DNA of 64,000 nt from Paraspadella gotoi (Eukaryota > Animalia > Chaetognatha): contig CM119265.1 in NCBI GenBank assembly GCA_051294375.1, positions 8,254,772 to 8,318,771 on the forward strand. Reading direction: 5' to 3'. Shown piece after piece: positions 15,720-54,437 of this stretch (its first letter is position 1; each line of letters starts with the position of its first letter). The translations under genes were made by a program, and so were the position numbers. Below the pieces are notes generated by a model. That model had not been told where the DNA came from. It searched no databases and saw only the letters and a program-made list of their open reading frames with translations.

Positions 15720-15925
15720 TTGTGCGAACTGCAGCTTAGGAAAAGAGACAGAACTGATTCAATTAAATGACAACAGCGAATCGTGTAAGAAGCAAAACAC
15801 GAAATTGAAACGAAACGATGATTTATTTTAATCTAAATGAAAAACTGTTAGGTATCGAATAAAAAATAAACTGAGATGGCGGTGCGAGATGGCAGCAACG
15901 ATAAAAGGGCAAAGGGCAACGCGTG

Positions 15926-17469
15926 TCAATCTTGTTGCAGGAAAGGATTGGGAATGGTTTCCATGCCGTCTGCGGGGCAGATGAGGACGACCGATGTTCC
16001 GCGACAAACGACCAGGCCCAAGTTTCGAGTCTCGTCCGTCAACTTGAAGGGATCATCCGGGTCTCGGATATACTCGGTCGTCCCGTCCAGCACCTTCCAA
16101 GGAATAGTTACGTGTAAAAACAAAAATGGTTTAATATGAAGATTTCATTAAAAAAAATCTTAAAAGCATAATATAAGGATCGTCGCAATCGAATAGAAAA
16201 ATCTGGATTGACAAATTTTGATACTAAAAAAAATCAAATTTGAGAAAAGAAAATTAATTTATAAACAGAAAGAAAAATTATATTTTGCGTTAAAGTTAAA
16301 AAAATTTAATTATCAAAATCTTAAAAGAATAAGGATCGTCGCAATAGCATAAGAAAAATCTGGATTGACGACAAATTTTGATATTAAAAAAAAGAAAATT
16401 TGAGAAAAGAAAATTAAATTATAAACAAAGAAAAATTCTATTTTTCGATTGTCAATAAAAAAAATAATAAAGTACGGAAGAAAATTAAACTTACAGTTTC
16501 TGAAAAAAAAGCAAAATGATAACATGCATGAATGCGATGCCTAATTTTACGAGTTCAATCCTAATTGAATTTTTTTTTTTTAATAAAAACGCAGAAAGAG
16601 AGAGAGAGAGAGAAAAGAGAGAGAAAAGAAAGAAATCAAAAGGCAGTAGCAGAAGCAGCAGGAGAAAAGAGAGAAAAAAAAAGAGCCACTGCAGAGCCAG
16701 CTGCAGGCTCGTTTTTTTCCCTATGATTATGAATCCGTGACTAGGGAAAAGAGAGAGGGAGAGAGACATGTAATTAAAAGAGAAAAGAGAGAGAGAAAGA
16801 AATATGAAAATAAAAGAGAAAATTTGTTTGTTTTGATAAAACGTAAACAAAACATATTTAATAACTGTCCAGACTCAATTTTAAGCACATCGATGATGAG
16901 AAGCTGTATATAAATTTTCAGCTTCATACACCCAAATTTAATCATAAAAAAGGCGATCTATAATTTGGAACGCCGACGACAACGACGACGACGCCACTTA
17001 TGGGCAAAAGCGATACAATATCGTCGCAAACGCTTAGCGATTGCGACGATAAAAAGGCCATCGATATGTTGGAACGCCGACGACGACAACGACGTGAAAA
17101 TTGTGTGAAATTTGTGGACTCGAGCTCGATAGATCCAATCGAGCTAGGCACATGCGACGACAGCATTAAGAGTGAGGCAGTCCCTCGTAGGACGAACGCC
17201 TGTCAAGTGAAGTCAAGACGACGACTACGCCACTTATGCGCAAAAGCGTTACGAGATCGTCGCAAACGCACCCTCACGGCTCAACTCACCAAATTGAGAA
17301 GAGGGTCGAACCCCTTCAACACCCCAGAGGATTCTCTTCCGCCGGAGAATTTGACACGGATGGTTTTGTCTAAGTATTTGGAGAGATCGAGGATCGATTC
17401 TTTTTTTTTCTTTTCTCCGCCTCCGCCACCCTCGCGGGGCTTTTTGTTGTCCTCGTTGGCTCCGGACAT
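15926..17469 (-). CDS. LSM7: U6 snRNA-associated Sm-like protein LSm7 (2 exons)
   Basis: KKKKESILDLSKYLDKTIRVKFSGGRESSGVLKGFDPLLNL | VLDGTTEYIRDPDDPFKLTDETRNLGLVVCRGTSVVLICPADGMETIPNPF. Confidence 0.97.
16155..16440 (+). repeat. Dispersed repeat family A, two tandem copies in the LSM7 intron
   Basis: TAAGGATCGTCGCAAT...AAAAATCTGGA...AAATTTTGATA...AAATTTGA; also at ~29580-29680 and, split, at 49870/50435-50500. Confidence 0.7.
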
Positions 17470-17922
17470 TGTTCAAAGTTTCGGTGGAGTCCGATCGCGG
17501 TTTAAATTAAGCTTTCGGTCGCTCTGGGACAATTTGATGTAAAGCAAAAAATCAAACAATTCACTTTGGTTTTCGTTATCATAATGACGACGCAAAAATT
17601 CCCAAAAATAGAAATATGTAGAACAATACATATATATAGACTTTGGTCTTTTCTTGAAACGAACGCTGTCATGGTGAAACATGAACGATACAAAATATTT
17701 TTCCCGTGGAAGATTTGAAGCTTTACATTCTGCAGTAAGTCACTTTAAATTTTAACTTTTAGTGCTTAAATCCGATTATACACAGTCCTTCGACAAAAGT
17801 CGATAAATGGAATAAATCAAGCTAAAATTGGGAACATAATTTTAATAAAACTGCATTATGTATTAATTTAAGAGCCGAGGGGGGAATTCAATCAAAGACT
17901 TAGTATTCTAAAAGTTATATAC

Positions 17923-18220
17923 GTGCGGAGTACAATATAGTATTCCCCGATCTAATACTTAAGGGAGTGGTCTTTTCATACAATTGAAACATTCTTTGAA
18001 ATATTATACCACTTCATTGATAGGGAAGCCAGGTTCACTGGGAGTGAATAAATAAGACTGTGAGAGAGTCTTGATTGAAAGCTTGCAGAAACCTGCTATG
18101 TTATTATCTTGTAAGTGTGATGGAGGCCTTAAACCACCAAAGCCTGTCCAAAGTCAGGGACAAGATAGCTTATTTATTAAATGAATGGATAATTTTTATA
18201 TTGGTTGTACCAATTTCATA
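17923..18220. mobile_element. Longest copy of repeat family B (non-autonomous, terminal hairpin; Helitron/Helentron-like)
   Basis: One end is the hairpin GTGCGGAGTAC-AATATA-GTATTCCCCG, shared with 4505-4531; the other end is fixed at ...GTACCAATTTCATA. Confidence 0.65.
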
Positions 18221-19124
18221 CAATCATTTGTAAGCTAAAATCACAATTATGATTAACATAGCCGAGTCTACAGTTTTAGGGTAGAAAAAGTAATTGTAAC
18301 TATCGTGTCTTCATATTCCGTGCTCATATTTACGACGATAAAATTCAAGAACCCTGCACTTGCACGGTTTCTAAAAATTTTGAGAAAATTCGATGACTAG
18401 TCGAAGTGGGATGATTCTTTACAGGACTCAAAAGAAGCGTATTTAAAAAGAAATAATTTAAATCAAAGTAACAAATATTACTAAAGGTAAAAAACATAAT
18501 GGTCGAGACCTCAACATAAACCTATCTCCCTTTCGCAAGGGCATCATTTTAAAAACATTTATAAAAAATACTGCAGTGATAAAAAAATTTAATGAACTTG
18601 AGATCCATGTGTTAATGTTTTGATTGTAAGACGAGATACTGTCGATTTTAAATCCAAAGACAATACCATTAGCGCTGGGACTTATACCGAATTCGAAAAA
18701 ATCATATACGGCTGGAGCCTCAATAAGAAATAAATAAAAATAAAGTTTTGAATGAGTGATTGGGTTTTTTCGTTTTGTATTTTTTTCTCACCAAAATCCA
18801 TTGACTGCGTGCTTCAAAAACTACAACTAAAAATAAGCAATTTCGCTATTATAAATCAACTTTTAAAAAAAAAAGCGGAATCTGAAAGAAGTCCTACACG
18901 GAAAAACCTCAAAAAAAAAAAATTACGTCCAATTTCCCTCAAAACTGAAAGAAAAGCCTTGAGGCGGCGAAAACCAAAAGGTCGAAAAATCTCTCAACAA
19001 CTAAGACTAAAAGAGACAATGTAAAGCAGACGAGGACGATATAGTTGAGGCGGGAAGGGTCCGGTGGTTGTTGTTGTCGTTGGAGTCGCGGCCGGCACGC
19101 GTCAATGGATTCGGTGACGCATCG

Positions 19125-22100
19125 TCATTTGGAGACGAGGCCTTTAGCTTTGGGGAAAGCGTCGTTCGACGCTTTGGAACTTCTCGTCTTGGAGGATTTG
19201 GAGCGAGATCCGGAAGATTTGCTCTCCCTCCTGAAGACGTCGGGGATCGTCTCCGAATCGAGAGAGGTCTTCGACTTTCGACCTGACAATGCGAAACTCA
19301 TGATCAAATCAAGGGACAAAACCAATCTCAAAAAGCAGGGTTCTCTCACCGCCGAAAGAATCACCGACACCGGTGAGCTCGAGGTCGCCCTCGTCGTCGT
19401 CTTCTTGCAGAGCGGCGTCGAGCGCGGCTTGAACCCGAGGCGCCACCGTCGGGCCCTCCCACTCTCTCGTCGTCCGGCCAGGCATGTCGAGCTCCAACTG
19501 AATATAATTTTTTTTTTTCTGACTTCGACGTTCAGTTAGCATAGGACCTTAATAACTCACCTGCAGAATATTTTCCCCCTTGTAGCGAGGGTTTCCGCCC
19601 CGAGCCGCCATTTTGGCGTATTCGGAAGTGGGTCGGCGATGCCCGGCGGCGGAGACTGGTCGCTTCAAAACCCCATCACCACCGGCGGCACCGAGCTCCC
19701 CAGCCGCCTGTTCATTGATTTCTTTTAACTTCCAATTGTCGTCGTCCTCGTCGAAAAAAGCGCGCTTCATTACCTGATCGGAGATCGGAAACAATGCTAG
19801 TCGTTAAAAAGAAAAAAAATACTTTTTGGATACATACTCAATAAGGCGGGTTAAATTCGATCCCTTTTTATCATTAGAAGTTTTGTCATATAAAATTAAT
19901 TTGTCCATCATATACTTAATCAATATTTACTATCACTTTCATAACTAGTGAAGCACAGTATAACATTGAAGTATTTATAAATGCATAGGCAATGAAATAA
20001 ATTTTTTGCAAAAATTTATTTTTTTAAGAACGGATTCAGATAGCCCATAAAAAGTTGTCTACACAAAGTATAATGCGTTTTTCAATATTTCGATGATAAA
20101 TGGGTCAAATAAGGGAAAAACCCTTAAAAATCATCATCATCATACCATAATTTTTATAGTTTTTGCTAATTTTAACCAATAAAACATAAAAATTTGGAAT
20201 TCTTATTATAATATTTTTTTATTCATTTTTGCAAGCTCTACCCGAATCCGTTTTTAAAAATTCTGAATTTGAAATATAAGCTTTTGTCTTGATATCGAGT
20301 ACACATATGGCTACTCCCCCTTCGGTAAGCCATTGCTCTACGACCAATTTTGGGACATCAGAACTTATTGTAAAAAGATGCTTCAGCCAGATTTGAACCT
20401 GAAACCTTTTCGTAACGTTGAAATCCGGCGCGCTAAGCACTCGGCCAAATGATTTTCAAAAAAATTTTGTACAAATTAAATTATATAAAGCTGTAGGTTC
20501 GCTTTTAATTTTTTGGGGGAAACAAAAAATTCAACGTTCGAAGGCAGAGATTTCGACATCCGAGTCCCAAGTTTCCCGATTCGTGACGACGATTAATACG
20601 AAGAAACCGAATATCTGGCTTATTTTTAATGTTTGAAATTGAGGAAAAGTCAGTTGCTTCTTTAAGCCGCGACATTGAACATTTTCACCTTGCTTTTAAG
20701 GTGTTTTATTAAGTGTTTTTAACTAGTTGCTTATTGTATCAATATTAATAAATAGGCTAATGATTGAGAGAATGAAAGAATGAAATCGTTTCAAAAATGG
20801 AATAATCTAAGTTTTTGATTTGCATAAAAACAAGTTTGAGCAAACAATGTCGGATCTGCCTACAATAATTAAGCAGTAATTAGCTAATACGATGATAATT
20901 GTTGGTAATGTTTTCTGACTTTCAATTTGTGATCTTAACCAATCATAACATGTTGTAACATAAACAAGTTTGAGCAAACAATGTCGGATCTGCCAACGAT
21001 CATTATCGGTAATTAATTAATTAATAATTAAGTTAATTAATTAATTATTTTGATCCAAAATGTTTTTTTTGATTGATTAATTGACTGATTAATTAATTAT
21101 TGATTAATTAATTGACTTATTGATTAATTAACTGATTAATTATTTGATTAATTAATATATGTATTTATATTTAATAAAAAAGCATAATCAATTAGTGAAA
21201 CACGTTTTTTTGTTTTTTTCCATTTAAACTCATTTCCACTCAAACGATTCCATCGAAACTTGATTTCCAGTTTTAATCACACACTTTTCTACCCACATAC
21301 AAAATTTCAAGTTAATCTCCCCATCCACTCATGAGTAATTGGTGTTCAAATAGTGAAATATATTTTTTTTCCAGATCAGAAAAGAAAAACCAAAATTTAT
21401 ATTGAGGTTTTTGAATTTTTTTTTTAAATAACGAGATGGCCGAGTGGTTAAAAACTAAGACTTCGACGCAAAATGGAATGGTAGGATTCGAATCCCACTC
21501 GAGGTAATCTTTTACAATAAACTGCTATGTCCCAAAAGTGGTCGTAGAGCAATGGCTTACCGAAGGGGGAGTAGCCATATGAATACTCGATAACAAGACA
21601 AAAAGTATCTTTCAAATTATCATTTGTACTCGAGTTACAGAGCTTGCCGTCTCAGAAGTTCTAGACGGATGCTACTGTACAACCAATATAAAAATTATCC
21701 ATTCATTTAATAAATAAGCTATCTTGCCCCTGACTTTGGACAGGCTTTGGTGGTTTAAGGCCTCCATCACTCTTACAAAATAATTACATAGCAGGTCCCT
21801 ACAAGCTTTCAATCAAGACTCTCACACAGTCCCGTTTATTCACTCCCAGAGTACCTGGCTTCCCTATCAATGAAGTGGACAGTGAAGATTTTTTTTTTTA
21901 ATATCGTTATCCCACAGGGATGCTCTAACGTTATTTATATGACAGAACTCTTAGTTTTTACCTTGTTCCGCCTTAATACTCAAGCGAAGACTACGCTTAC
22001 TTTGGCCTTTTCCTCGGGTGGAATGAAATTTTCGATGATTAAAACTTTGAGCTTTAATTCCCGCGTCAACTCCATCTGCGTTTGTTCCAATTCTTGTCGC

Positions 22101-25100
22101 TCTTTCACGTGCTCCTCTTGAAGATCAACGATTTCTTGCTTCGTCGCCTTGAGAGGGCGGAACACTTAACATTAACAATAATATTTTTGAGGAATAATAT
22201 TTCCTAAAGCCTATACCTGCAATTTGGCAAAGAGCTTTTTTAATCGCTTGGTTTTGACTTCAACTTCCTGCTGCAAAGACCCGAAGGTTTCCTCGAGCTT
22301 GGATGCCATCTGAGATAAAAGATCCAATTTATCGCATTTCGAAAAGTTAATACAACGAAGGACAAAGGACTCTTTGATATATTTTTCGCCCAACGTCGCT
22401 GGAGGAGATAAGACTTTGGTATAAAGTGGGCAACGTGAATAAAAATAACTAGACTTTATCTTTCAAACATGGAGAATAATTTAATCCTTGGCCTTGTATT
22501 TTATGTGGCGCTCGCAGCAATTTACGGAGAAGCGAGAGAAGATGACGTCGTCGTTGACGACATGGTGTTTGGTCGGCATCAATACCTCAAAACCTATTAC
22601 AACATCAGGAAAGTCAATCTTCGGAAATTATTATTAGTTGTAAATCTATAATATATACTATTATATAGTGGGTTGGCCGGGGCCGGAATGTCAGATCGAA
22701 AGTGGCGTTGGCCAAAGCGAATCATCCCTTACACCATCGGGGCCGAGTACAGTGAAAGGAGGAAAGCAATGATCCGTGGGGCGATGCAGGAATGGATGGA
22801 CAAAACGTGCATAGTCTTTGCCGAGAAAGGCAGCGCCAAGGCAGCAGCAGCCGGTGAATACGGCTTAACTGAATTTTATTTCAAGACTTAATATCAATTA
22901 TTCTATATCTATCCAAAGGTCACTCCCACGCAATAAACATAGGAAGCTTCGCAGGATGCTATTCTTACGTTGGTTACCAAGGTGGCCACGAGATTAAATA
23001 ATAATTACTATCTCTGAGTAGGAAAACGTTTTAGGAATATCTTATCATTAGGGAAGGATCACCCTGTCTCGTTGAAGCTGGGAAGTTGCACAATTCACAG
23101 AATAGCGCTTCACGAACTCGGGCACACAATCGGTAGGAAAATCCCGATAAATTGAAAACACTAAAACATTAATGCAAGTACATTTCGTCAAGGTCTGCAC
23201 CATGAGCAATGTCGTCAAGATCGCGATCTGTATGTTAAAATAGTTTATGAAAACGTTCCGGCTGTCAGGTACGAACAAAGATTAACTTTCAAGTGTGGCC
23301 ATAAATTTTTCGATATTTTTTTATCCAGAAAATTCAACTTTGACAAAGTCAAAGGGACGTCCAACTTTGGGATACCGTATGATTATTGCAGTATTATGCA
23401 CTACGGAAACATGGCGTACAGCTCTGATTACAAATACACCATATTGACAACAGATCCAAGTACAGAGATTCACTGAATGATATTGTTAGTCCTAAATATA
23501 TATATTAATGTGTATAGCTCATTATTTAATGTTAATAACTATAGATTACCAATTTCGTATTGGGGAAAGCCAGCATTTGGCATTTTCAGACGCCAAAATT
23601 GTCAATCTGATGTACGAATGCAATAGTAAATGCACCGAGAATCCTTCATGCAAGGTGAGTTTTTGAGGTTCGAAATTATGCCAACATCAATCATAAAGCA
23701 AATTGTAAACTAGCGCGTTTTGTTTTAGTGTTGGAAGCAGAATCTCGCGAATGGAAATCGGATTCTCGTAGAAACACTTATGTAAACTAGCGCGTTTTGT
23801 TTTAGGATCCTTGCTACGTCAACCATAAGTGCCAGTGCGAATGTCCAACAAAATGCGACCCAGTTCCGTGCAGTAACCTCAATCCTTATTGCGAAGTAAG
23901 TTCAAGTCTGATGATTTTTTAAAATTTTGCTTAAAGTTAAAACAATGGATATTTTTTCCCCGAACAGAAAAATGCGGCGAGAGGTTTATGCAAATTAAAC
24001 TACGCCAACATGAAAAAGAATTGCCCATTGGTTTGCGGATTCTGCGAAGAGATTGAAAATTTGCGAAAACAATTCGGATTTTAAATTTGAAAAGAATTTT
24101 TGAAAAATAAAAGTGTAAATTTTTTTTCTTTAAAATTAAAAAAAGGGAAATATATAAATATATTTTTTCGTTCACCTCCTCCTTCGTTTCCAAGTCTTGC
24201 TGCAACACCCGCTCAGTTTTATTCTTCTCCGCGATGAGTTGCCGTCTCTGCTCTAATTCTCGCTGTTGCTCGTTGGTGTGATCGAGGATGTTTGTGCCGC
24301 CGGACAAGAGCTTGCTCTCCATCGCCTTTATCTTGGCCTCAAGCTTTTTTTTCTGCTCCTCTGCTTTCTTCATCTCCTTCTCCTTTTGCTCTATCTGCTC
24401 CAGCATGACCTTCCGCTCTTCTGCGATGATGGTCTGGTCGTTTTTCACCTTGTGCTTTTCTTCCTCCAACTTGGCCTTTTGCTCCGCCGCAAACTTCTCC
24501 TGTTCTTCCTACGAGATGGAAGAAGTTTGTGATTGATTAATCGATTGCTTCTGACTAAATATTTTACCTGCTCATTTACGGCGTCGTCTTCATTCTCCGA
24601 ATCTAGGTCAGCCTCGTTCTCGCCCTTTTCTCGTTTTCGCCGCCCCTTTCCCTTTTTCCCGCCCTTTTTCATCAAGTCTCCCTTGAGACGCGCGATCTCC
24701 TCTTGGAATTGGCGCAATAAGGCATCTTTGGGGTCTTCGTTGATTCGCGGGTTGTTCTTGATGTTCTTGGCGCGGTTAGCGTAGCTGACAAGGAAGGCAA
24801 AAGAATTATAAAAGATCTGTGACGTCGAGAAACTTGGAATCGTCAGGTTCCGACTTACCGCAACGTCGTGATCGTCTCGTCAAAATTGTAAGAGGCCGGA
24901 GAAATTGTGGCCACCATGATGGTTTTCGCGTTTCCGCCCAGCGAATCCTGGAGCAGCCGCGTTAACTTTGAGTCTCTGTAGGGAATGTGAGAGGTTCTTC
25001 CATCCACCAAGGCGGAAATTACGTTTCCTGAAACCAAATTTGTGAATTTTATTAAGTTTTTCATAGATTTTACCTAGTTATTACCTAGCGCAGATAGAGA

Positions 25101-26512
25101 GAGATTGATTTTGGTCGCCTCTTTGAATCGGTCGCCGGTAGCGCCAGTCTTTGACTGGCGCTCGCTGCCAGCCAGGTCCACCATATTGAGCTTGCCGACT
25201 CGAATGTGGTTTTCGCCGTCGACGGCAGACATCTCGCTGCATTCCACGGTGATCACGAAAATCGCATGAGATCTAAAAGCAAAGTATAAAGAAATAAAAT
25301 ACTTCAATAATTTTTGGGAGAAATTAAATCAACAATGTCAACTACTGAACTCGCCTAGAAGAATGTTCGTTCATGTTGGTGGCGCCGACGACGCGATTCT
25401 GGTTCCCTACGTGCATGACGTGTTCGATTTCCTTAACGCTTTTGGTGACAAAGGAGGATAAGTCTTTGACGTAGACCCCGGTGTCGGGACGTTCCTGTCG
25501 ACGAAATAAAAGAGTCGATCACGATACATCACAGAAAACACCAGGTCGCTTTCCGTTCCTGTCGATTACCTTGAGTTCAAGGCGCTTGTTCTGATCCTTA
25601 GCGAGAAGATCGCGGATTTCCTCCTGATAGATCTCCAAGTAGGAGGCGCGGACGAGGTACTGCTGGTGTTCGCTGCGCGCGATGTGCGAAAAGACGTGAT
25701 TGAAAGAGTTGGGGATCACACCCCGCAACTCCTCGTTCTCTTTGACTCCCTGTGAACGAGGCGATCGTTTCATGAGAAGTATAACAAATACATGGTCAAT
25801 GATCAGTTTATTTTTCAGGAGAAAAAAAATCGATATCGGAAATGAAAATTAACGATTGAAAAAGTGCAAAAAGTAACTTTTTGTATTAAAATGAATTAAC
25901 TGTGGTTACCGAGTCGGTTCGATTCCGTCTTTCAGCGAAATTTTCCTGACAATGGAATCTATCTTTAATAAAACAACGCGAAAAATAATTAAATGAAATT
26001 GGTACAACCAATATAAAAATTATTTTATATCTGATATCAATATTTATCTCCGATTCGCAAGTAATTATTCAAATCGCCAAAAAGGGCGGCCGTAGGAGCC
26101 AACCTGCATGGTGAAAGTCTTCCCGGTTCCCGTCTGTCCGTAGGCGAAGATTGTGCCGTTGAATCCTCCAAGGACGGAGTCGACGAGATCACGAAAAGTC
26201 TCGTCGTAGAGATCCATCTGCTTCGACTGTTCATCGTAGACCGCGTCGAATGTGAAAGACTTCGGAGGCTCCGTTGGCGGCTGGGGAAAGTGGAAGTTAA
26301 AAAAATGAAGTTGGAAAAGATTAACACAATTATTACATCAAAATTATTTCCTTCGACTTCCTCAAACACACCTTGTTGGGATTTTTGATGTCGATGACGC
26401 CTCGCTTATTGTGAATTGTGGTAATGCTTTGGTGATTTTCGGCGATTTCTTTGGAGCTCATGGGGCGACATCTGACGACGACCCGAACCGTCTCGTCCTT
26501 TTTCTTAGACAT
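19125..26512 (-). CDS. KIF3B: Kinesin-2 motor subunit KIF3B-like (multi-exon)
   Basis: [17 protein letters not shown]; P-loop [11 protein letters not shown]; MNEHSSRSHAIF; [23 protein letters not shown]; [23 protein letters not shown]; stalk [28 protein letters not shown]; tail [24 protein letters not shown]...PKAKGLVSK*. Confidence 0.95.
20231..21647. mobile_element. ~1.4-kb non-autonomous DNA transposon with ~120-bp terminal inverted repeats in a KIF3B intron
   Basis: ...TATGGCTACTCCCCCTTCGGTAAGCCATTGCTCTACGACCA (20306-20346) is the reverse complement of 21539-21580; similarity extends out to GCAAGCTCT / AGAGCTTGC. Confidence 0.75.
21431..21504 (+). pseudogene. Degenerate tRNA(Ser)-like sequence / SINE head
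   Basis: A-box ACGAGATGGCCGAGTGGTTAA and B-box GGATTCGAATCCCAC resemble eukaryotic tRNA-Ser, but the anticodon and variable arms are disrupted. Confidence 0.55.
22469..24084 (+). CDS. Secreted astacin-family metalloprotease with C-terminal Cys-rich/ShK domain, nested antisense in a KIF3B intron
   Basis: Signal peptide; [10 protein letters not shown]...[13 protein letters not shown]; GCYSYVG; zinc motif HELGHTIG|[11 protein letters not shown] split by an intron; Met-turn [11 protein letters not shown]; ShK-like [12 protein letters not shown]. Confidence 0.92.
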
Positions 26513-26892
26513 TGTGTAACGGGTTGCTCAGGGAAGGGAGTAGGAGGGAAAAGTAGGGCTACGAAACGAAAGGCTTTTTCTTTCTCGACCAAAACGCAAT
26601 AAATATATTATCCATCTTCATCTTGGTTTCTATATCCAGTTTTTCATTTACATATTCCTGAAAACAAAATCAATTTACAAATCATCAATGAAACGACGCA
26701 ACCGGATAAGCTTCGGTTTCTAGCTACTGTAAATTATTTATTGAAAAAAAAAATGACGTAGAATGCGGGTTTGGGTGGGAAGGAGGTCAAGATAAATAAC
26801 ATGGAGTATGATGGAGAAATGAAAAAAAAAAAATCGAAAAATCGATTCATTAGTAAAACGTCTCCCACAATCGCCGAGCGAATAAAATGGGA

Positions 26893-28747: not shown

Positions 28748-28990
28748 ACTGATATTTGTTGGAAGCGAGGGGGGGGAGGGAGACCTCGGTGTCTTGTAAA
28801 GTCGAAAACACCTCGGTTCACATCATGACCGAATTAATCTTAAAACGAAAACAAAAACAAACAGCAATTAATGCTGAAAAATGCACACGAGTTCGCTTCG
28901 CGAATGTTTAGAATGGAGATTGTCTAATGTCTAAATATCACATTCGTGCATCGACAATTTAAGTTCAGTTCTGTGTTTGTTTGTTTTTTC

Positions 28991-36813: not shown

Positions 36814-39157
<2,344 letters not shown>

Positions 39158-42547: not shown

Positions 42548-42663
42548 GTACAAACTGAATTTAAAACAATTCAAAGAGTAATTGAAAATTATCGTCAACT
42601 GCTAATCGATGTTGTATCTCGAATAATGTTTTATAATAAATAGTATATTATTTTTGCAGGGTT

Positions 42664-44028: not shown

Positions 44029-44280
44029 GATGAGATCGTTTACAATGCCCGAGTTTTCGTTCAGTCAGTTATTGGACTGTAACTAATATAATTAGGCACG
44101 ATGCAAATAAAATCAAATCCAATTTCTTTGAGATAACATAAATGACATTTTCACGAAGTAAATAATTGAAGGCACGTCTTGGGACAAAGATAAAAATGTA
44201 GTATAAAAGACAATGTATTACTTAGTACAATTAACAAGTTAATGAAAATTTTAAAAAATAAAAACAAGTAAACAAAGTGA

Positions 44281-45114
44281 CTACATTTCGTTAATACCTT
44301 TTATATTGAGAACCATATCAGAACGGTACGTCATCATGGGATAGTTTTCGGTCTCCCCTAGGCCCTCGTCCTCCCAATCCATCACATCGTCCTCGGCGGC
44401 GAGCTCTCTCCTCTGCTCCGCCACCTTCTTTTCCGCCTCCTCGACCTCCCGCCGCAGAGCCAAGATATCCTCCGTCGATCCGCCCTTCAAAGCGCGCCCC
44501 GTCTTCTTGGCCGCTTTCTTCATCTTCTCCCGTTTCTCCTCGGCGACGCCGGCCTCGGCGACGAGCCTCTCCGCTTCGAGCAGAATCTTCTCCGTCTCCG
44601 CCTTTTCCGCGACGGCCTCGTCGATGATGCTGCGCAAATCTCGTTCCTCTGAGGATTCGCCTTGGGCCAGGGCGTAGTATGAGGCGTCATTGTCATTAGT
44701 CGTTTGCTTAGATTCGTCCATATCCTTATAAGAATAATTATAAGGGGTCAACTGGATGACAGTCGGATAGACGTAGACATCAAAAAGGCCTAAAAGCAAG
44801 AATATAAAAGAAATAAATTTTACCGTGACTGAGGCCGAGAGTGGTGCCACTGTCACGTCGATGTTCCTCCAGGATTCGCTGCACCAAAGTTTTTCACAAA
44901 TTTTAAACCCGGCTAACTTTCCGATGTCCGCCCCGATGAGCTTTTTGATGTGGCCCACCATTTCCGAGGAGACTTGTTCCGACTCCTCGAAAGACTTGAA
45001 AAGAGTTTTGGTAGAAGTCGACTGGTTATCCACGGGCTGACGTTCGAGATTCGTCAATTCGCCCAACTCTTGGCGAACTTGGGTCAGTTTTTTACCCAGC
45101 AACTTCGACGTCAT
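44281..45114 (-). CDS. Uncharacterised charged coiled-coil protein (exon structure ambiguous; possibly two cistrons)
   Basis: 277-aa open frame with two exon-like GC-rich blocks separated by AT-rich intron-like sequence; the C-terminal block is E/K/A-rich. Confidence 0.55.
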   Translation of the reverse strand: MTSKLLGKKLTQVRQELGELTNLERQPVDNQSTSTKTLFKSFEESEQVSSEMVGHIKKLIGADIGKLAGFKICEKLWCSESWRNIDVTVAPLSASVTVKFISFIFLLLGLFDVYVYPTVIQLTPYNYSYKDMDESKQTTNDNDASYYALAQGESSEERDLRSIIDEAVAEKAETEKILLEAERLVAEAGVAEEKREKMKKAAKKTGRALKGGSTEDILALRREVEEAEKKVAEQRRELAAEDDVMDWEDEGLGETENYPMMTYRSDMVLNIKGINEM

Positions 45115-45644
45115 TTTGGGTTGACTTAAATTAGCTTGTCAGTCTTAATATCCTGATAAGTGTTGAGTAAATTCGTTACAATAGAATTTTTATTAGGTAC
45201 ATGATATAGTAATAATATCTCGCTCTAGTTTTATCAGTCATCCAAAACAAAATACAAAAAACGCAAGCTAAAATTTTTTTGGCGGTTTTTCCAAGAAACA
45301 AACGCAAGCAATACTTATTTGTTTCGATTAATTCTCAATATCCGCCAACAACCAGTAATATACGTAAAAAATAAGGTACGAAACAAATATAAAAAAAAAA
45401 CAATAAAATTAAAGCTTTACCGCAAAATCTCCGGAAATAAATAGTGCATCTTTGTTTTTAATCGAAAGAAGGGAAGTTCCAAGAGTGTCAATATAGGTGA
45501 GTATAAAAGAAAAAAAGGGTAAGCTCGGGTCCAAAAAGACTACCTCTTCAAGCGTAGGATCGTGACTAGTAAACAATATAATTATCTCTTTGTTCAAATA
45601 ACAAAAAACGAAAAAGGTGCGAGTATCACTCAAATTTAACAGAA

Positions 45645-47270
45645 TCAGTGGCCGGTTTTTTTTCGGTGAAACCACATGGTTTGGCGACTGTTGAACGCCA
45701 TGTTACAGACGTTGCAGTGGAGGACTTCGCGGAAGTGGATTCTCTTCAGATGTTCGCGGCAGGTGTCCTTGCGGGTGAAAGTCTTTTTGCATAAAGAGCA
45801 GGTGAAGGGTCTGCGGTTGTGTGTCGGTTTTTGACCTGAAAATATACTCGGAAGAATTACTACCAAATTTGCAACACAATTAGTAGTTTGTATATTTTAA
45901 GCGATACCTCTCCGATTCTCCGATTCTCCTTTACCCTTGGCTTTTTGAGTCTTAGACCCTTCAGCCTCTTTTTTCTCCCCATTGAGGTTTTTAGTGACGA
46001 ACTTTTCCTCGTCACCCTCGTTGACCCTGGTCGCCGAAACCGCAGCCGCGGCCTTGGCTTTGTTGCCGGTCGAGGCGAATGGACCGGGTACGGAGCGACC
46101 CGTCGACCGATAGTGTCCATCGCCTTCGGAATCGTCGGGAGGCGACCTGGTCGGTGGTCCTGACGGCGGCTGTTCTTTGTTTCCCCGCGGCGACGGGGGA
46201 GTAAAGTGGGACATCATGGCGAGAAACGAATGAGTGATATTCTCGTAGTAATCTTCCTTGGGACCTGATATGGCCGAGGAAGATGATGCCGAAGCATCGG
46301 AGACCCTGCAGTGCGGCGGATTCGGCGGCGTGGCGACGTGCCTGGACTTTTCCGAGGGCGTCAAGTCCAGCGCTGTCCCTTCAGCCGGCCCTTCGAGCGG
46401 ACCGACGGTATCAGCGGACGGAGGAGTCGAGGCAGACCCTGGCGGCGGCGGCGGCGGCGGCGTTTCGACAATCCCGTCGATGAGATTGTCGACTTTGTCG
46501 TCGTCGGATATCAAGTTGGATTTCGGTTCTGAGTTAAGGTTGAACGGATTGGAGGAAGACCCTGATTGGAGCCGAGGCGAGGAAGCACACGGCGACGGAA
46601 GACGGAAGACGGTACCGTCCGGCAAAGACGAGAGAGGGAGAGAGGAAATCATCGACGCCGAAAACGGCGAAGGAAGCACGTAGGCGAAGGCGCCGTCAGA
46701 GACGGAGTCATCGCCTACGTTATCGGGCGACGGGCTCGCGGTCGGACGATCGAAGACTAAGTTAAGCGGATTTCGATCGAAGTCGATGCGAGAGAACTTC
46801 GGTTTTAAGCGCGTCTTGTGCTTGGTCGGCGCCTGGCGCTTTCGACGTGAAGGGAGCGGAGCGGTGTCGCGGACGAGCGGCGTTTCTATTTTATAATCGA
46901 TAGGGGCGTCGAATTTGAAGTCGGCCTCGGAAGCGACACCAAAATCGTCTTCGACCTCGCGTCGCGAAACGGAGAACGCTTCTTCCTCGGGTCGCTCCGA
47001 ATGAACATCCCTCGAAAACCCCGAAGAAGCGTCTTCGTCGTGGTGATCTAGGGGCGCGGCGAACTCCACGTCATTCTCGCGTGGATGGAGACCGTCTCGC
47101 AGAAACGCCGAGCGAAGCGTCGTTCCGCCGGTCCATATACGACCGCCGTCACCCTCGCCAGAGGCGTCGACCAGGACGAAGACGTCGGCGCTGACAATGT
47201 CGGCGAGTTTCATCGCTGACTCCAACAGGAACGACGTCAGGCGCGACTCCAACTTCCCTTGAGTCTTCAT
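45645..47270 (-). CDS. Protein with a long disordered region and two C-terminal C2H2 zinc fingers (2 exons)
   Basis: Long exon 47270-~45908 spliced to GQKPTHNRRPFTCSLCKKTFTRKDTCREHLKRIH...HCNVCNMAFNSRQTMWFHRKKTGH*. Confidence 0.85.
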
Positions 47271-48059
47271 CGTCGCTTTTTATTGCTTTTAATTTCGAAG
47301 GTGGCTTAACCCCGTTGGCTTTAGCGCGGAACAGGCATCGGGGAAGAAAAGGGCGGCGCGGACCACAATCACAGGAAAGTTAAAAAAAAAATCTGATTTT
47401 AAAAAACACGGAAAATAAGAAAGCGTTAGGAGTCGGAAACGCTTGGCGGTGATTACAAATAAACAATATTTTCACTAGCTAATAATAGGATTATCTTTGC
47501 AACAGAGATTCATTATGACTGGCTCTTAATCCCTCATGATATGGGTAAGAAAAAAGGACCATTGATGAATTGTATTTGATGAAATCAAAATGTGTTATTA
47601 TCTCCCGTACCGAAATGCACTGTCTCAGCGCAGACTAGTGACGGTTTTCAGTCGCAGATTAATGTACGTAGACAGTTCATGATTAAAGAAGTCACAGAAT
47701 TCCTCATTCTTTTCACAAGAATAAGAAACTTCGGTCCTGCCCATAATGTGACTCCGGTTAAATAAAATGCACGCATTTTAGTTAATTAATCAAACTAATT
47801 TAAAAAGCATTATCTTAATATAGAAATTTTAAGGAAATTTCTTTCAACTTCAGGATTAAAAATGAATACCGCGGGCTTTCAGGCAAATCTTAATTCGTGT
47901 TTCTCCCTCTTGCAGTGGGCAACCGATAATGCAAAGAAAATAAAAAAGCAAAAATAAATTCATTCACAAAAGAGAAGCTATCACGCATTACAGTTTCTTT
48001 TTTAAAAAGAAATATTTGCGAAGGGATAAAAAATTTTTGGTCTAGTCAATCCGAAGATG

Positions 48060-49769
48060 TCACTCGACACCATGAGCAAATATCATTACTAGGCCCGGCT
48101 CCAAAATCATATCGGGACCCATATGTCGGTTGTCACAAGCAGTAATGACGACGGCTTGTTTTCCGGGGATACGCTTTGGGACATAGTTTTCGTAATTTCG
48201 ACGGTTGAGTTGCCGCGTCTCCAGAGTATTCAGCCGCGACGGCCATTTCCGCTCATGGGCGTTTTCCATCAGTTCCATAGCGATCGTCGAAGGGCATCCG
48301 CTGTCGAGAAGGGCGCGCTTCACGACCGCTTGAAGCGTCGTGTCGGGCGTCGATATCATTCCGCCCCAACGAGTCACTCTTGAAAATAGGATGAGGATTT
48401 AAGGGAAAGATTAGGAAGGTCACAAGGAAAAGTGTTTCAATCCAGACACTCACCGCGCCGGACGAAGCGACGCCACCCAATCCATAAGATCTTGGTTCAT
48501 GGAAGAACTCAACGAGTTCGCTTCGGCCGCAGCGGAAGTTGCGGCGGCGGCGCCGGCACCGGCCTGGTTCGACAGTTGCATGATTAGCGCCGCGTCGGAG
48601 GCGTTGTGACCCGAGGCCATCGTAGCGATGGTCATGATAACCTCGTTATCGTCGCTCGTACTGGGAAATTAAGAAATATAAATTAAACTTTTCTAAGTTG
48701 ACAAGATAACAACAAGAGAAACCTGGTGTTGTGAGGAGACATGGGCGATCTGATGGAGAGAGGAGACGATTCCGTGTTCATGGGCATCACCGCCGAAGAA
48801 GAAGATCGCGACTCGAAACTGAAGAAAGGAAAAGCGATGAGTCAGACCTCGTTGAAGACGAAGCAGTCAACGTCAATCGCCTTCATACAGAGTGGGAAGA
48901 GTCTGTCCGCGGGGAAGGAGATTTTGAACGGTATCGCGAATGATGTCGAGGTTGCGTCTCATGTCCGAATTGAGGAGTTTTTGTTCTCCGAGTTCTTGCT
49001 ACGGAGATGACAAAGTAAGAACGATTTTAACGTACCGTACATTACTGCATAGCAAAGTTAGTTGTAAAGAACCTGCATCATCGATATTCTATTTTGTTGT
49101 TGCTGCAAGAGAAGCCTCATTTCTCTCACACAGTTGTGCTCCTTAAGCTCGTCTTTCGGAATCACGATGCCGCAACCCTGTTCAGAAAATTAGTTACTTT
49201 TAGATTGCTCAGTTAATCTAAAATGACGAGGCGATTATAACGCTTGAATAGTTAACTGACTTGGGGGCAGGGAACTGGCCGCTTCGGGTTAAACTCGCAC
49301 TCTGAGACGTGAATTTCCAAACGATCGAGCTTCACAGTTTGCTTGGTGAAAAAAAAGTAACCAAAATAACTACACGTGTAGAAAAATAGGATGTAAATTT
49401 ACTTTACTGACCTGACAACCGTATTTAAAATTCTCGCAAGAAATATCCAATCGAGAAAGCAGATTCCGTAAAATTCTCGGGACTGGCTTTAAGTGACATA
49501 TGACTAGACGTTGACGGTCTACGGGACAAGTGGCCTGTCGAGTAAGCCATTCTGAGAAAAACAAAAATAAAACCTTTTCTAAAAAAAAAAAAAAAAACTA
49601 AAAAAAACCATCAGCGATCGCGCATCGTACAACAACCTTGTATACAGCCCATGCAAAACGCGTGTTCGCACTCTGGCGCCTGTAGCGGATCTTCCAACAC
49701 CCCGCTACAGATTGGACACAAAAGTTCTTCGTCCACTTCGCCCAAAAAACGGGCAACGTCATACCCCAT
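48060..49769 (-). CDS. RNF41: E3 ubiquitin ligase NRDP1
   Basis: MGYDVARFLGEVDEELLCPICSGVLEDPLQAPECEHAFC, TCPVDR, C-terminal USP8-interacting domain VTRWGGMISTPD...NAHERKWP...EPGLVMIFAHGVE*. Confidence 0.96.
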
Positions 49770-49933
49770 GATGGTTTAAGTGATCGTCTAAGTAAAACCT
49801 CTGCCAAAAGAAAAAAGTCAAACCCACCCAGATTTTAACTCCGTCCGCGAATGAGTTTAGCAAATAAGGATAAGGATCGTCGCAATCGCAAGGGGCAAGA
49901 TAGCTTATTTTTTAAATGAATGGATAATTTTTA

Positions 49934-50410
49934 CAGGCTTCATATTAGAAAATGCTCTTTCGCTTTTTCGAACCGAGTATCGGTTCTGACCAAATCACTG
50001 AACCAAATTTGATACGATTTTTCGTGCAGTAAAAAAAAGGTAAATTTTTTCGTGGGATCATTTTGCATTAATGTCTTAACTTTGTAAAAAAAAACATGTT
50101 AAAACTAATTTTCTAAAATTTAAATTGATTTTTCTTCTTTTGAACATTGTTAGTCCATCATTTTAGAACAAATTTTTGCTCCCCTAACGAAAGCTGGCAT
50201 GAACATCCTTTGTTCATTATCTTGGAAATAGAGCAAAAATTCGTTTTTCACAAAATTTACTTTTCTGCACAAATAGAAGTTTCTGCAACTGTTCAGGATT
50301 AATTTTTTTTATAAATTTGAAAAAAAATTGTTAATTTTTTGCCCACCTGGGCTGACCTTTTTAGGGCCCATATATCGAAAAAAAAGTATTTTCTCATATG
50401 AAGCCTTCTG
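49934..50410. mobile_element. Tc1/mariner-type MITE (TA TSD) nested in repeat B
   Basis: TA|CAGGCTTCATATTAGAAAATGC...GTATTTTCTCATATGAAGCCTTCTG|TA interrupts the repeat-B sequence GATAATTTT[TA]TATTGGTTG. Confidence 0.8.
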
Positions 50411-50690
50411 TATATTGGTTGTACCAATTTCATAGCAAAAATCTGGACCTATGACAAACTTTGATACTCAAAAAATCAAATTTCATACAGGAAGACAAAG
50501 TTTTATAAATAACAAACGACTTAATATATAGATTTTTTAAAAAATATTAGTGATTCGACGCACATATTCAACAATAATAATTACAAGCGATAGCGACGAT
50601 AAAAAGAACTTGACAAACAGAATAACAAAATCAATTCGAAGCCTAATAAAGACAACTCGATGCTATGGGAATCTACACTCCCAAAAGCAC

Positions 50691-51429
<739 letters not shown>

Positions 51430-51616
51430 TTAAAAATGGTGTGCGAAGCCCATTTACAGTACTGGTGGATACTAGCTGTAAATATGCGTCCAAACATTTC
51501 ATTTTTTAAGGAAATACCCAATAGAAAAAAGGCGATGATAGTCGAAAGGAATAATTCATTGACTAGAAGAATTCAGAGCGTGTGCTCTTTCCGATTCTCG
51601 CTCACAAGCCGAGATT

Positions 51617-54112
51617 TTATGCACTGGCGATCAGCGAAGTTTGCTGACTGAGAAGCGCCAGAGAATGTTCCGTTGAAAGCTTGTGAATCCCGAACTCGGC
51701 GAGAGAGTCGCGAGCGCCCTCCCCGCCGTCAGAACCTAACAGACCACCGGCGTTGGAGGCGTTGCGGAACGAAACTATCGTATCTTTCAAAAGACGCGCC
51801 GACCCCAGCGGCAGCGTCAAAAGGGTGAAGGCCTCCTTGACCTCCTTAAAGTAGTTTTCTGGTTTGGCCGTGAATTCGGCGAAGACGGGAAACAAGTTGC
51901 GCTCCATGTCGTACTTGAGCTGCGCCGCGCCGCCTTCGCTAAAATGATTGGGGAGGATGACTTCCTCATAAATGTACTTGTTCAAGTCCCTAGCGATACG
52001 CTGCCAGATTAGGGTCATGTTGGGGGGAGACAGATAGAGGCCGAGTATGTGAAATCGTGATTTGAGGATGAGAAGCATTTCGCACGCGGAAGACGAGAGG
52101 TTTGGGGAGACCCAGTCGGAAGTTGGAGGAATCTGCAACCACTTTTCCTTTTTGTAGGCTTGAGACCGGGATTTGACTTCGATCATGACCGCATAGACGA
52201 TGTCTTTAAGCATCGTCTTACGAAGATGATCGTATGTTTGTATGATTTTGTCAAAAATGCTCTTGGCCGTCCCGTCAGAGGGATCCGCTGCAGTAGGATC
52301 AAAGAGTAGTTTGTCTTTCAAAATTTCGCCCGACAAATCGCTGACTTTCAAGCGTTCCGAGAAAAGGGACAACGCAGAAAAAGTGTAGCTTTTGCTAGTT
52401 TCCAAGGCTGACACACTTACGTCAGTAACAGTGGCCGTGTTAGTCGTCATTTCTACCGGAACGACGCTGGTATCGGCCACCATAGAGGCGTACTGTTCAT
52501 TGTACCAGCTCAGTTGAATGTAGTGGGGATGCTCGCGCCAGTCTTGCAAAACGGTGAGAACGTAGTGAATTCCGTTGAGAACTGAAGTAAACTTGATGCC
52601 CATTGGGTTTCCCTTTTCCCCGCCCTTCACTTGCGTCATTCGGAGGTGAAAATCTTCCAAGAGATTAAGTTGCAGCTCAAGAAAGTGAAGTTTCGGCAAA
52701 GGCCCAGGTAGCATGACGCTCCGCTCCTTGAGGACGTGAAGCTGAGTCACGAAACTCTCGGTGCATTCGGGAACTCGTAAACAGGTGCCGTCATCGCTCG
52801 CCGAGAAGAGGAGAGCGTCGGCCGACGCGTCCGTTAGCACAGTCTGTGGTGACTTCCAAGCGGAGGGCGACGCCAGCATCGAGTCTATTCGCTCCTGGGC
52901 GAATTTCTTCTCCACGGTGATCCATCGCTGAAAGGCTTTTTCCTCGCAGAGAATATGGAGGACAGAAGGAAATACGGAAGGATAGTCGTAACCTTCCACG
53001 AGGGAACGATGAAAGAAGAGCGCCTCGTTGACGGTGTGACAGAAGAGGGATTCGTCGTAGAGCAATTCCGGAATGTCGGACTGGAGCTTCTCCATCACCA
53101 TGAGCGACATGCCGCGGATAAACTCCGCTTTGGCTTTGATGCGAGTTCTGCTGATCCGATCAAAGGCCGGTTGTATTATCTCGTCGAAAGTGTTTGCGTG
53201 GACACTTAGCCAGGAGAGCGCTTGGCTAAAATACCATTCCGGTTTGCTCAGATTATTGGTCGGCCGGTCACCGAAAAAGTGAAATTTAAATCTTTTCTTA
53301 AGAGGATTCAGTACGAATTGCATGGGGAGCGAGAAGGGTTCCAACGAACAGCCGAAAACCGACAACTTGTGCAGCATCGTTTTCGGGAGGCCGCAAGACA
53401 CGCCGAAGGAAGCCGGTAGCTGTACGTTTAACAATTGCGACAAAACTGTTTCGAAACTCGCTCTGTTTGCTGGCGAAACGTTTGTAACCGTCTGACCGGG
53501 GTTAGACGGACCCTCCACCACCGGATAGCCAAGAATTTTTAAATTCTTTTCCAATACCTGCGCTAGTTTTTCTTTGATGATGTCGTACCAATACAGGACA
53601 GTATCTCTAGCAAAATTGTAGAGAAAATAACACGATGTCGAGGAGAGGTGTTGACTCAAATCGACGAGTTCGGAAAAGGCATCAACGCCCGAAGTCATCG
53701 ATCCGGCTAAGAGCGAAGTTTGAATACTCGCGCTGATTTCTTCCACCTTCATTATCCAATGTAAGTATGAGAGATATTTTTCGACGTGTTGAATTTCGCG
53801 CGTTCTACCCTGCAAGCTGGGAAGCAATGGCAAGCATTTTTCCAGGTGTTGCTCGGTTCGTTGGTGAAGATATTCGCATTGATTGATGAGTTCCGCAATA
53901 GATTTCTCCGCGTCTTTTCCTTCGCTAACGGCCGAATTGATTTTGGTTGGAATCTCCTGATTTGCCAATGCCACCTGCTTTGAAAGCTGATCTCTTTGTT
54001 TTTCGAGTTCCGCTCGCAGTTTCTCTATCTTGGAAAAGGATTTGAGATCTTTTCCCAAGTTTCGGTTTATAAAGGCAATGGCCTCTCCTTTGGCGGAAGA
54101 GTTGGACTCCAT
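51617..54112 (-). CDS. RINT1: RAD50-interacting protein 1 / Tip20 (single exon, 831 aa)
   Basis: PLKKRFKFHFFGDRPTNNLSKPEWYFSQ, LFCHTVNEALFF, HFSEGGAAQLKYDMERNLFPVF...KPENYFKEVKEA. Confidence 0.95.
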   Translation of the reverse strand: MESNSSAKGEAIAFINRNLGKDLKSFSKIEKLRAELEKQRDQLSKQVALANQEIPTKINSAVSEGKDAEKSIAELINQCEYLHQRTEQHLEKCLPLLPSLQGRTREIQHVEKYLSYLHWIMKVEEISASIQTSLLAGSMTSGVDAFSELVDLSQHLSSTSCYFLYNFARDTVLYWYDIIKEKLAQVLEKNLKILGYPVVEGPSNPGQTVTNVSPANRASFETVLSQLLNVQLPASFGVSCGLPKTMLHKLSVFGCSLEPFSLPMQFVLNPLKKRFKFHFFGDRPTNNLSKPEWYFSQALSWLSVHANTFDEIIQPAFDRISRTRIKAKAEFIRGMSLMVMEKLQSDIPELLYDESLFCHTVNEALFFHRSLVEGYDYPSVFPSVLHILCEEKAFQRWITVEKKFAQERIDSMLASPSAWKSPQTVLTDASADALLFSASDDGTCLRVPECTESFVTQLHVLKERSVMLPGPLPKLHFLELQLNLLEDFHLRMTQVKGGEKGNPMGIKFTSVLNGIHYVLTVLQDWREHPHYIQLSWYNEQYASMVADTSVVPVEMTTNTATVTDVSVSALETSKSYTFSALSLFSERLKVSDLSGEILKDKLLFDPTAADPSDGTAKSIFDKIIQTYDHLRKTMLKDIVYAVMIEVKSRSQAYKKEKWLQIPPTSDWVSPNLSSSACEMLLILKSRFHILGLYLSPPNMTLIWQRIARDLNKYIYEEVILPNHFSEGGAAQLKYDMERNLFPVFAEFTAKPENYFKEVKEAFTLLTLPLGSARLLKDTIVSFRNASNAGGLLGSDGGEGARDSLAEFGIHKLSTEHSLALLSQQTSLIASA

Positions 54113-54437
54113 GTTTGCATAGGCAATCTTTAAGAAGAGTTAACAAGAAAACGATAGCGAATTTAATTGATAAATACAATCAAATCACAGTAATCAAACG
54201 TCACGGTTCCCTAGACACCCCGTAAAAGAAAATAGAAATAACCCATTTTTGAAACACAAAAAAAAAATGAAAAATATAATGTTTTTACTACATCGTAGTG
54301 AAGTCGAAAAATTCTGACCCAAGAAAGTTTTTATTTTAATTGAATTTTAAAGTTTTGTTATAATTTTTCATACAAAATAATGAGAATAGCAGCACCATGA
54401 ACTGCTACGAATTGGATAAATTAACTAAGCATCGAGT

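What the first reader, a model, noticed from the sequence alone, without database searches (positions are those of the whole stretch)
15720..54170. Apparently unpaired 3' splice acceptors just upstream of start codons, often ending in AAG
Seen on the minus strand: RINT1 TTAACTCTTCTTAAAG|ATTGCC..ATG; NAA10 TTTATTTTCTTTTAG|CAATC; QTRT2 TTTTAAATTCAG|TTTGTACATG; NUBPL CCTTTAAATATCAAAG|CGACAATG; TSR3 AAAACCTCAG|ATG; cystatin TTTTTTATTTGTTTAAAG|; DEAD TTTCTTCCGTTTCTAG|; SPOP TTTTTGTTTTCGTTTTAAG|; F-box TCTGTCTCTTTTCCTAAG|. These sit a short way after the upstream gene's stop codon, and I saw no clear upstream non-coding exon, though I did not exhaustively exclude donors. About half end in AAG. Inference: these are trans-splice acceptors, possibly with a consensus distinct from cis sites.
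Basis: partly seen in the sequence, partly recalled or inferred. Interest (0 to 1): 0.7.

Follow-up and report, generated by a model that had tools for sequence, protein, structure and literature searches.

The report
Likely trans-spliced operons in unplaced animal
Twenty mostly housekeeping genes of an unidentified animal lie head-to-tail on one strand, and over half have a splice-acceptor-like site with no matching donor just before the start codon, which likely means shared transcripts cut up by leader (trans-)splicing, a known mechanism, though no RNA data could confirm it here.

Summary
All nine motifs are present as described. They lie in a 52-kb run of 20 modelled genes, all on the minus strand; 9 of 19 stop-to-ATG gaps are 330 nt or less. 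Against a matrix from 66 modelled cis introns, the best AG within 100 nt of the ATGs beats dinucleotide shuffles (3 of 1000 reach it). Only 1 of 20 has a donor at normal intron distance, against 54 of 66 cis acceptors. T content drops at the AG, and a branch-point-like motif is as common as in introns. A distinct AAG consensus is not established: cis introns use AAG too (8 of 66), and chance AGs are 34% AAG. Best reading: spliced-leader trans-splicing resolving operon-like blocks (about 0.65). Main rival: separate compact promoters with chance AGs. No leader sequence, SL RNA gene or RNA read was found, and the animal could not be placed in a phylum. This is a known kind of system; it matters more if the lineage has no trans-splicing on record.

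The parts
5558..57031 (-). Run of 20 co-oriented modelled genes (PARG, RINT1, NAA10, RNF41, C2H2 zinc-finger gene, unknown gene, PGAP3, QTRT2, NUBPL, NMNAT, TSR3, cystatin, DEAD helicase, SPOP, KIF3B, LSM7, RRM/F-box/LRR, EMRE-like, MYT1-like, VDAC-like)
   Evidence: Gene models; Pfam on exons; gaps. KIF3B, cystatin, EMRE, MYT1 and the zinc-finger gene are named from their translated sequence (recalled family features).
50691..57031 (-). Tight block PARG-RINT1-NAA10 (stop-to-ATG gaps 325 and 271 nt); candidate operon
36183..45114 (-). Tight block unknown gene-PGAP3-QTRT2-NUBPL-NMNAT (gaps 252, 116, 126, 173 nt); strongest candidate operon by spacing
29277..35050 (-). Tight block TSR3-cystatin-DEAD helicase (gaps 199, 264 nt); candidate operon
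13499..17469 (-). Tight pair LSM7-F-box (gap 206 nt); candidate operon
54128..54143 (-). RINT1 acceptor-like site (AAG), score 7.0, 15 nt before the ATG; an out-of-frame ATG lies between them
51374..51388 (-). NAA10 acceptor-like site (TAG), score 6.5, 28 nt before the ATG
49801..49820 (-).
45153..45172 (-). Acceptor-like site (CAG), score 6.8, 38 nt before the ATG of the unknown gene
42555..42566 (-). QTRT2 site (CAG), weak (2.6); no GT between the PGAP3 stop and 55 nt upstream of it; it also reads as an initiator-like TCAGTT
41041..41056 (-). NUBPL site (AAG), weak (-0.5), 5 nt before the ATG
39197..39216 (-). NMNAT acceptor-like site (CAG), score 7.7, 45 nt before the ATG; a short upstream ORF follows it
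35051..35138 (-).
33856..33893 (-). Cystatin: two acceptor-like AGs, AAG at 33856 (6.1) and CAG at 33874 (6.8)
33167..33182 (-). DEAD helicase acceptor-like site (TAG), score 8.3, 33 nt before the ATG
28839..28857 (-). SPOP acceptor-like site (AAG), score 7.0, 91 nt before the ATG
26658..26677 (-). KIF3B candidate acceptor (CAG), score 9.2, 145 nt before the ATG
15735..15752 (-). F-box acceptor-like site (AAG), score 7.7, 15 nt before the ATG
11381..11400 (-). EMRE-like gene acceptor-like site (TAG), score 8.5, 74 nt before the ATG
22369..22891 (+). Internal control (one gene): start of an astacin gene nested antisense in a KIF3B intron; TATAAA 49 nt before the ATG and no acceptor-like AG (best score 0.9)

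Best explanation
The donor-less AG sites before these start codons are likely spliced-leader trans-splice acceptors, and the tightest blocks of co-oriented genes are likely operons whose single transcript would be cut into separate mRNAs. Inferred mechanism: Pol II runs through a block; each upstream mRNA is cleaved and polyadenylated in the short T-rich gap; the spliceosome recognises branch point, pyrimidine tract and AG; with no cis donor in reach it joins a capped leader from an SL RNA encoded elsewhere. Genes behind 0.5-2 kb gaps may instead have their own promoter and an outron. Shown: the motifs, gene order, gap lengths, acceptor excess, missing donors and the composition step. Inferred: splicing at these AGs, the leader RNA and co-transcription.
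For: (1) 20 of 20 modelled genes from 57031 to 5558 are on one strand (naive p=2e-6; the region was picked after the fact). 9 of 19 stop-to-ATG gaps are 330 nt or less and 5 are 250 or less, although they must hold both UTRs. (2) Best AG within 100 nt of the ATG: mean 5.70 against 4.17 for dinucleotide shuffles (3 of 1000); median 6.7 against 3.4 in 173 other non-coding windows (p=3e-4). (4) T falls from 0.40 upstream of the tract to 0.28 after the AG (13 of 16 genes, p=0.002); decoys go from 0.39 to 0.37; swapping AG distances between genes matches the step in 217 of 5000. (5) YTRAY (recalled branch-point consensus) 12-45 nt upstream: 11 of 20 sites, 33 of 66 cis, 21 of 82 decoys (p=0.013). 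(6) No excess of TATA, DRE, CCAAT, GC-box or TCAKTY in the gaps, while the nested antisense astacin has TATAAA at -49 and no acceptor (one gene). (7) Coding CpG observed/expected is 1.28, which implies little gene-body methylation; PMC12460157 (passages) notes that state in trans-splicing phyla. (8) Weak: an unnamed relative's RINT1 record (P0038) reads upstream through a peptide compatible with a tract plus CAG about 21 nt before its Met (43% of back-translations score 5.1 or more, against 19% for shuffled peptides).
Against: No leader sequence or SL RNA gene was seen: Rfam gave no SL family among 5 weak hits, and a donor-plus-Sm-site scan gave 2 hits, both at intron donors. The acceptor excess is modest: about 8 of the 12 strong sites are expected from composition alone, and few genes are significant alone. 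The two shortest gaps (QTRT2, NUBPL), where trans-splicing is most needed, have the weakest sites. Donors are not depleted below shuffled sequence (3.52 against 3.80, 56 of 200). Upstream ATGs are not clearly cleared from the leaders (6 in 897 nt against 21 in 2100 nt upstream). TCAGT, an initiator-like word, is somewhat enriched (7 against 2.7, 3 of 200 shuffles, at 200 nt; 14 of 200 at 120 nt; one of 10 motifs tried). A T-content step is also expected at a transcription start. The QTRT2 relative P0022 showed no acceptor-like excess (0.33 against 0.33). The matrices rest on 66 hand-curated introns without RNA support.
Confidence: 0.65

Rival explanations
1. Each gene has its own compact promoter in the short gap. 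The T-rich stretch is 3' UTR or terminator plus promoter, the composition step marks the transcription start, and the AGs are chance or initiator-like (TCAG/T).
For: Shuffles give about 8 of 20 strong AGs by composition alone. TCAGT is somewhat enriched, and the QTRT2, cystatin and F-box regions hold TCAGTT. Upstream ATGs survive behind the AG in RINT1, NMNAT and SPOP.
Against: It does not explain 20 of 20 co-orientation; compact genomes without operons usually pair housekeeping genes head-to-head (general knowledge). Acceptor scores and branch-point-like motifs exceed controls. Gaps of 116-126 nt would have to hold a 3' UTR, a promoter and a 5' UTR. No known promoter motif except TCAGT is enriched.
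Confidence: 0.2
2. The AGs are ordinary cis acceptors of 5'-UTR introns whose non-coding first exons lie further upstream, possibly inside the previous gene's 3' UTR.
For: Good donors exist far upstream of RNF41 (score 11.5 at 546 nt) and PARG (9.3 at 294 nt), and at 58 nt for VDAC (6.6). One apparently unpaired strong AG (36345) turned out to pair in frame with a donor in NMNAT, which shows the risk.
Against: 0 of 13 strong sites have a donor in the 57-125 nt range typical here. In the 109-250 nt gaps there is no room for a promoter, an exon and an intron, and QTRT2 has no upstream GT at all.
Confidence: 0.1
3. Trans-splicing is real, but each gene is transcribed alone with a short outron, so there are no operons.
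For: 10 of 19 gaps exceed 330 nt. [quoted passage not shown]
Against: Uniform orientation and gaps down to 116 nt favour shared transcription for the tight blocks.
Confidence: 0.05

Closest known systems
SL-resolved operons of the chaetognath Paraspadella gotoi (PMC12460157, passages read)
   Same: Co-oriented housekeeping genes; that paper calls operons at under 250 bp spacing, which 5 of 19 gaps here meet even stop-to-ATG; genes there lack body methylation, and coding CpG here is not depleted.
   Different: There the leaders are shown by RNA, and the longest operon has nine genes. Here there is no leader or RNA evidence, the co-oriented run is 20 genes, and the organism is not shown to be a chaetognath.
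SL trans-splicing and operons of Macrostomum lignano (PMC8629364, passages read)
   Same: Unpaired acceptor before the first exon; about 100 bp modal spacing, inflated by repeat insertions; conserved genes preferred.
   Different: The trans acceptor there is YTNCAG, close to the cis motif; no AAG preference appears in the passages seen.
C. elegans operons and SL1/SL2; Ciona and Oikopleura single-SL operons (PMC7986045, background section and passages; PMC11155486, passages)
   Same: About 100 bp intercistronic DNA in nematodes; U/AU-rich outrons; trans acceptor is the first acceptor and lacks a strong donor.
   Different: Acceptors here are a loose pyrimidine tract plus YAG/AAG, not the strict nematode TTTCAG (recalled; T at -5 and -6 in only 53-59% of cis sites). 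Gaps are longer than the 1-33 bp medians of tunicates.
SL trans-splicing in the acoel Symsagittifera roscoffensis (PMC9911081, passages read)
   Same: Shows the mechanism in Xenacoelomorpha (30.2% of genes).
   Different: A large, repeat-rich, AT-rich genome; the word operon does not occur in its main text; kinship with this window's animal was not shown.

Membership tests
SL trans-splicing | Acceptor (branch point, tract, AG) near the 5' end with no cis donor upstream | tested here: met
   Met statistically for the set, not for each gene: 12 of 20 strong sites against 7.7 expected; 1 of 20 with a donor; YTRAY 11 of 20.
SL trans-splicing | U/AU-rich outron or intercistronic sequence ending at the acceptor | tested here: met
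   T 0.40 before against 0.28 after, 13 of 16 genes; decoys show no step; permutation 217 of 5000. Also compatible with a transcription start.
SL trans-splicing | Common non-genomic leader on mRNA 5' ends joined at these AGs | not testable with these tools
   Needs RNA reads of this organism; see Tried and rejected.
SL trans-splicing | SL RNA gene (leader, GT donor, stem-loops, Sm site) in the genome | tested here: inconclusive
   None in the 64-kb window; no whole genome was held.
SL-resolved eukaryotic operon | Co-oriented adjacent genes with short intercistronic DNA | tested here: met
   20 of 20 on one strand; 9 of 19 gaps 330 nt or less.
SL-resolved eukaryotic operon | Polycistronic pre-mRNA from one upstream promoter | not testable with these tools
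   Needs long reads, RT-PCR or chromatin data. Only indirect: no promoter-motif excess in the gaps except TCAGT.
SL-resolved eukaryotic operon | Gene order kept in relatives | tested here: inconclusive
   Two metagenome scans returned no usable relative locus.
   Matrix-picked 5 of 20; cis 8 of 66; chance AGs 34%.
Cis 5'-UTR intron | Donor at normal intron distance upstream of the acceptor | tested here: not met

The most novel reading that the evidence does not exclude
The animal belongs to a lineage with no trans-splicing on record (for example a Xenoturbella-like or other small unannotated group; its RINT1 forms an isolated clade with unnamed relatives), and most of the 20-gene, 52-kb run is transcribed as one or a few very long polycistrons, longer than the nine-gene maxima reported for chaetognath and Macrostomum operons, with relaxed AAG-tolerant acceptors.
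Probability: 0.15. Interest if true: 0.75.

Novelty: new member of a known kind. Interest (0 to 1): 0.45.

Why it matters
SL trans-splicing and operons have a patchy distribution in animals, and whether they arose many times or were lost many times is still open (PMC7986045 background; PMC12460157 passages). A further lineage with operons and unmethylated housekeeping genes would test the proposed link between loss of gene-body methylation and trans-splicing. In practice, annotation of this genome should expect fused gene models and leader-bearing 5' ends. If the animal is a chaetognath, flatworm, rotifer or acoel, the finding is an ordinary instance.

Tried and rejected
RNA: no RNA holder listed (3 runs listed, 1 holds the stretch). 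Contigs of those runs were laid on 27000-44200 only, so the RINT1, NAA10 and F-box sites were not examined. Run X1 covered introns and repeats, gave no exon-exon joint and no leader-like loose end among the rows shown (115 loose ends were not shown), and left the acceptor sites essentially uncovered; this is no evidence either way. No whole genome was held, so no genome-wide logos and no SL RNA search. Relatives' DNA: two metagenome scans with RINT1 alignments gave nothing and one 15-residue spurious match. Lineage: RINT1 is 67-72% identical to three unnamed proteins and at most 37-38% to named animals. A FastTree tree of 67 rows gives a fully supported clade of the window plus those three, at an unresolved position among animals (an IQ-TREE run did not finish; names). 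QTRT2 and PARG searches and the Atlas did not place it. Xenoturbella was considered from the deuterostome-leaning hits and 43% GC but is untested; the X. bocki genome paper (PMC11521371, passages) has 0 occurrences of trans-splic, spliced leader, operon or polycistron in its main text, and it reports genome methylation, which sits uneasily with CpG o/e 1.28. Searches 'Xenoturbella + trans-splicing' (3 papers) and 'Xenacoelomorpha + spliced leader' (2) listed no report for Xenoturbella; the library lacks most subscription papers, and two survey papers were not held. A 41-codon ORF at 36308-36183 first counted as a 21st gene was dropped: its acceptor pairs in frame with an NMNAT donor; still include it, one search does not. 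The unknown gene's intron was left out of the 66. No shared intercistronic 5- or 6-mer stood out (best p=4e-4 uncorrected). Supplements were not consulted.
Full report
Observation. All nine motifs occur once each on the minus strand at the stated places. I built gene models by coordinates and checked exons against Pfam (19 of 24 pieces hit a family). Twenty genes from 57031 to 5558 are on the minus strand: PARG, RINT1, NAA10, RNF41, a zinc-finger gene, an unknown gene, PGAP3, QTRT2, NUBPL, NMNAT, TSR3, cystatin, a DEAD helicase, SPOP, KIF3B, LSM7, an RRM/F-box/LRR gene, and EMRE-, MYT1- and VDAC-like genes. The only plus-strand genes I found are an astacin nested in a KIF3B intron and a dual-specificity phosphatase at about 61-62.7 kb, divergent from PARG; I did not search the longer gaps exhaustively. 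Stop-to-ATG gaps are 116-2192 nt, median 380, with 9 of 19 at 330 or less and 5 at 250 or less.

Reference set. The 66 modelled cis introns have a minimum of 57 nt and a median of 80; 59 are 122 nt or shorter. They end CAG 39, TAG 19, AAG 8. From them I built acceptor and donor matrices with leave-one-out score distributions. These introns are curated from reading frame and protein plausibility, not from RNA; the MYT1-like and VDAC-like models were set partly by hand.

Is the signal more than chance? For the 20 genes, the best AG within 100 nt of the ATG scores 5.70 on average against 4.17 +/- 0.62 for dinucleotide shuffles of the same regions (3 of 1000 reach it; 5 and 14 of 1000 for 80- and 160-nt windows). 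Twelve genes reach the lower-quartile cis score against 7.7 expected (33 of 1000). Other non-coding windows reach it in 52 of 173. The excess is real but modest.

Are they unpaired? Over up to 300 nt the donors are no weaker than in shuffles, so they are absent rather than actively purged. Distant good donors exist for PARG and RNF41, which follow long gaps. One strong apparently unpaired AG (36345) proved to be a likely alternative last exon of NMNAT and was removed from the count.

Intron-like context. T content is 0.40 at 21-70 nt upstream of the AG and 0.28 between AG and ATG (13 of 16 genes with long enough leaders, p=0.002). Decoys show 0.39 and 0.37. At matched distance from the ATG the values are 0.39 and 0.30 (p=0.01). 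Permuting AG distances among genes matches the step in 217 of 5000. YTRAY precedes 11 of 20 sites, 33 of 66 cis acceptors and 21 of 82 decoys. TATA, DRE, CCAAT, GC-box and TCAKTY are not enriched in the gaps; TCAGT is somewhat enriched. The nested astacin has TATAAA 49 nt before its ATG and no acceptor-like AG, the pattern expected of a gene with its own promoter. Against the reading: upstream ATGs are not clearly cleared (6 in 897 nt of leader against 21 in 2100 nt upstream), and the two shortest gaps carry the weakest sites.

AAG. A distinct consensus is neither shown nor excluded.

Organism. The proteins are animal. RINT1 is 67-72% identical to three unnamed proteins and at most 37-38% to named animals. 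In a FastTree tree these four form a fully supported clade at an unresolved position, outside the named arthropod, mollusc/annelid, hemichordate/echinoderm, chordate and cnidarian rows; one gene cannot place a phylum. Coding CpG observed/expected is 1.28, so the housekeeping genes are probably not body-methylated; PMC12460157 (passages) notes that state in ctenophores, chaetognaths and nematodes, all of which trans-splice.

Mechanism. Shown: gene order, gap lengths, acceptor excess, missing donors, composition step. Inferred: the tight blocks (PARG-RINT1-NAA10; unknown gene-PGAP3-QTRT2-NUBPL-NMNAT; TSR3-cystatin-DEAD; LSM7-F-box) are co-transcribed; 3' end formation occurs in the T-rich gap; a capped spliced leader is joined at the unpaired AG. 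PMC8629364 (passages) cites experiments that an acceptor without an upstream cis donor is the only requirement for SL trans-splicing in an organism that has it. I put this at 0.65, separate compact promoters with chance AGs at 0.2, cis 5'-UTR introns at 0.1, and trans-splicing without operons at 0.05.

Comparison and novelty. It works like the SL-resolved operons of chaetognaths, Macrostomum, nematodes and tunicates (PMC12460157, PMC8629364, PMC11155486 passages; PMC7986045 background section and passages). The defining features, a leader on the mRNAs and an SL RNA gene, could not be shown: no whole genome was held and none lies in the window. Membership is therefore likely, not proven. SL trans-splicing is reported in an acoel (PMC9911081, passages); searches listed no report for Xenoturbella, which is only one untested candidate lineage.

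Verdict. Observation partly confirmed; trans-splicing likely; distinct AAG consensus not established; new member of a known kind; interest 0.45.

Noticed in passing
window 22469 to about 23600, + strand: Apparently intact multi-exon astacin metalloprotease gene (signal-peptide-like start, zinc-binding and Met-turn motifs in later exons, TATA box) nested antisense in a KIF3B intron.
   Followed up: partly
window 36345-36183, - strand: Likely alternative last exon of NMNAT: a donor at 36864 joins it in frame to give a 301-aa isoform with another C-terminus; reminiscent of alternative last exons of Drosophila Nmnat (recalled).
   Followed up: partly
window about 38370-38170 and 37265-37065: Two direct repeats of about 200 bp with TG...CA ends flank about 900 bp inside NMNAT intron 3: looks like a small non-autonomous LTR element.
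   Followed up: no
window about 29870-30443: High-copy repeat inside a DEAD-helicase intron (summed contig depth over 20,000 against about 60 in the NMNAT intron in run X1).
   Followed up: no
window 27765 and 25354, - strand: Two modelled GC-AG introns (SPOP, KIF3B) among 66.
   Followed up: no
window 51617-54112 and 41162-42547: RINT1 and QTRT2 are single-exon and NAA10 has one intron, while several intron positions in other genes look unlike the human ones (recalled): possible heavy intron turnover.
   Followed up: no
window 1-460 and 6000-6360: Pieces of the VDAC-like gene recur, partly inverted, at the window start beside runs of N; probably an assembly artefact.
   Followed up: no
window 4678-4720, 18116-18158, 21729-21771: An interspersed repeat gives weak, below-threshold Twister-P5 ribozyme matches (E about 0.3) at three copies.
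   Followed up: no
window 13499-15719, - strand: The F-box/LRR gene also carries an N-terminal RRM domain.
   Followed up: no
window 44281-45114 and about 900-3200, - strand: A gene without Pfam match (about 260 aa, charged C-terminus) inside the tightest block, and a further multi-zinc-finger gene on the same strand that was not modelled.
   Followed up: no
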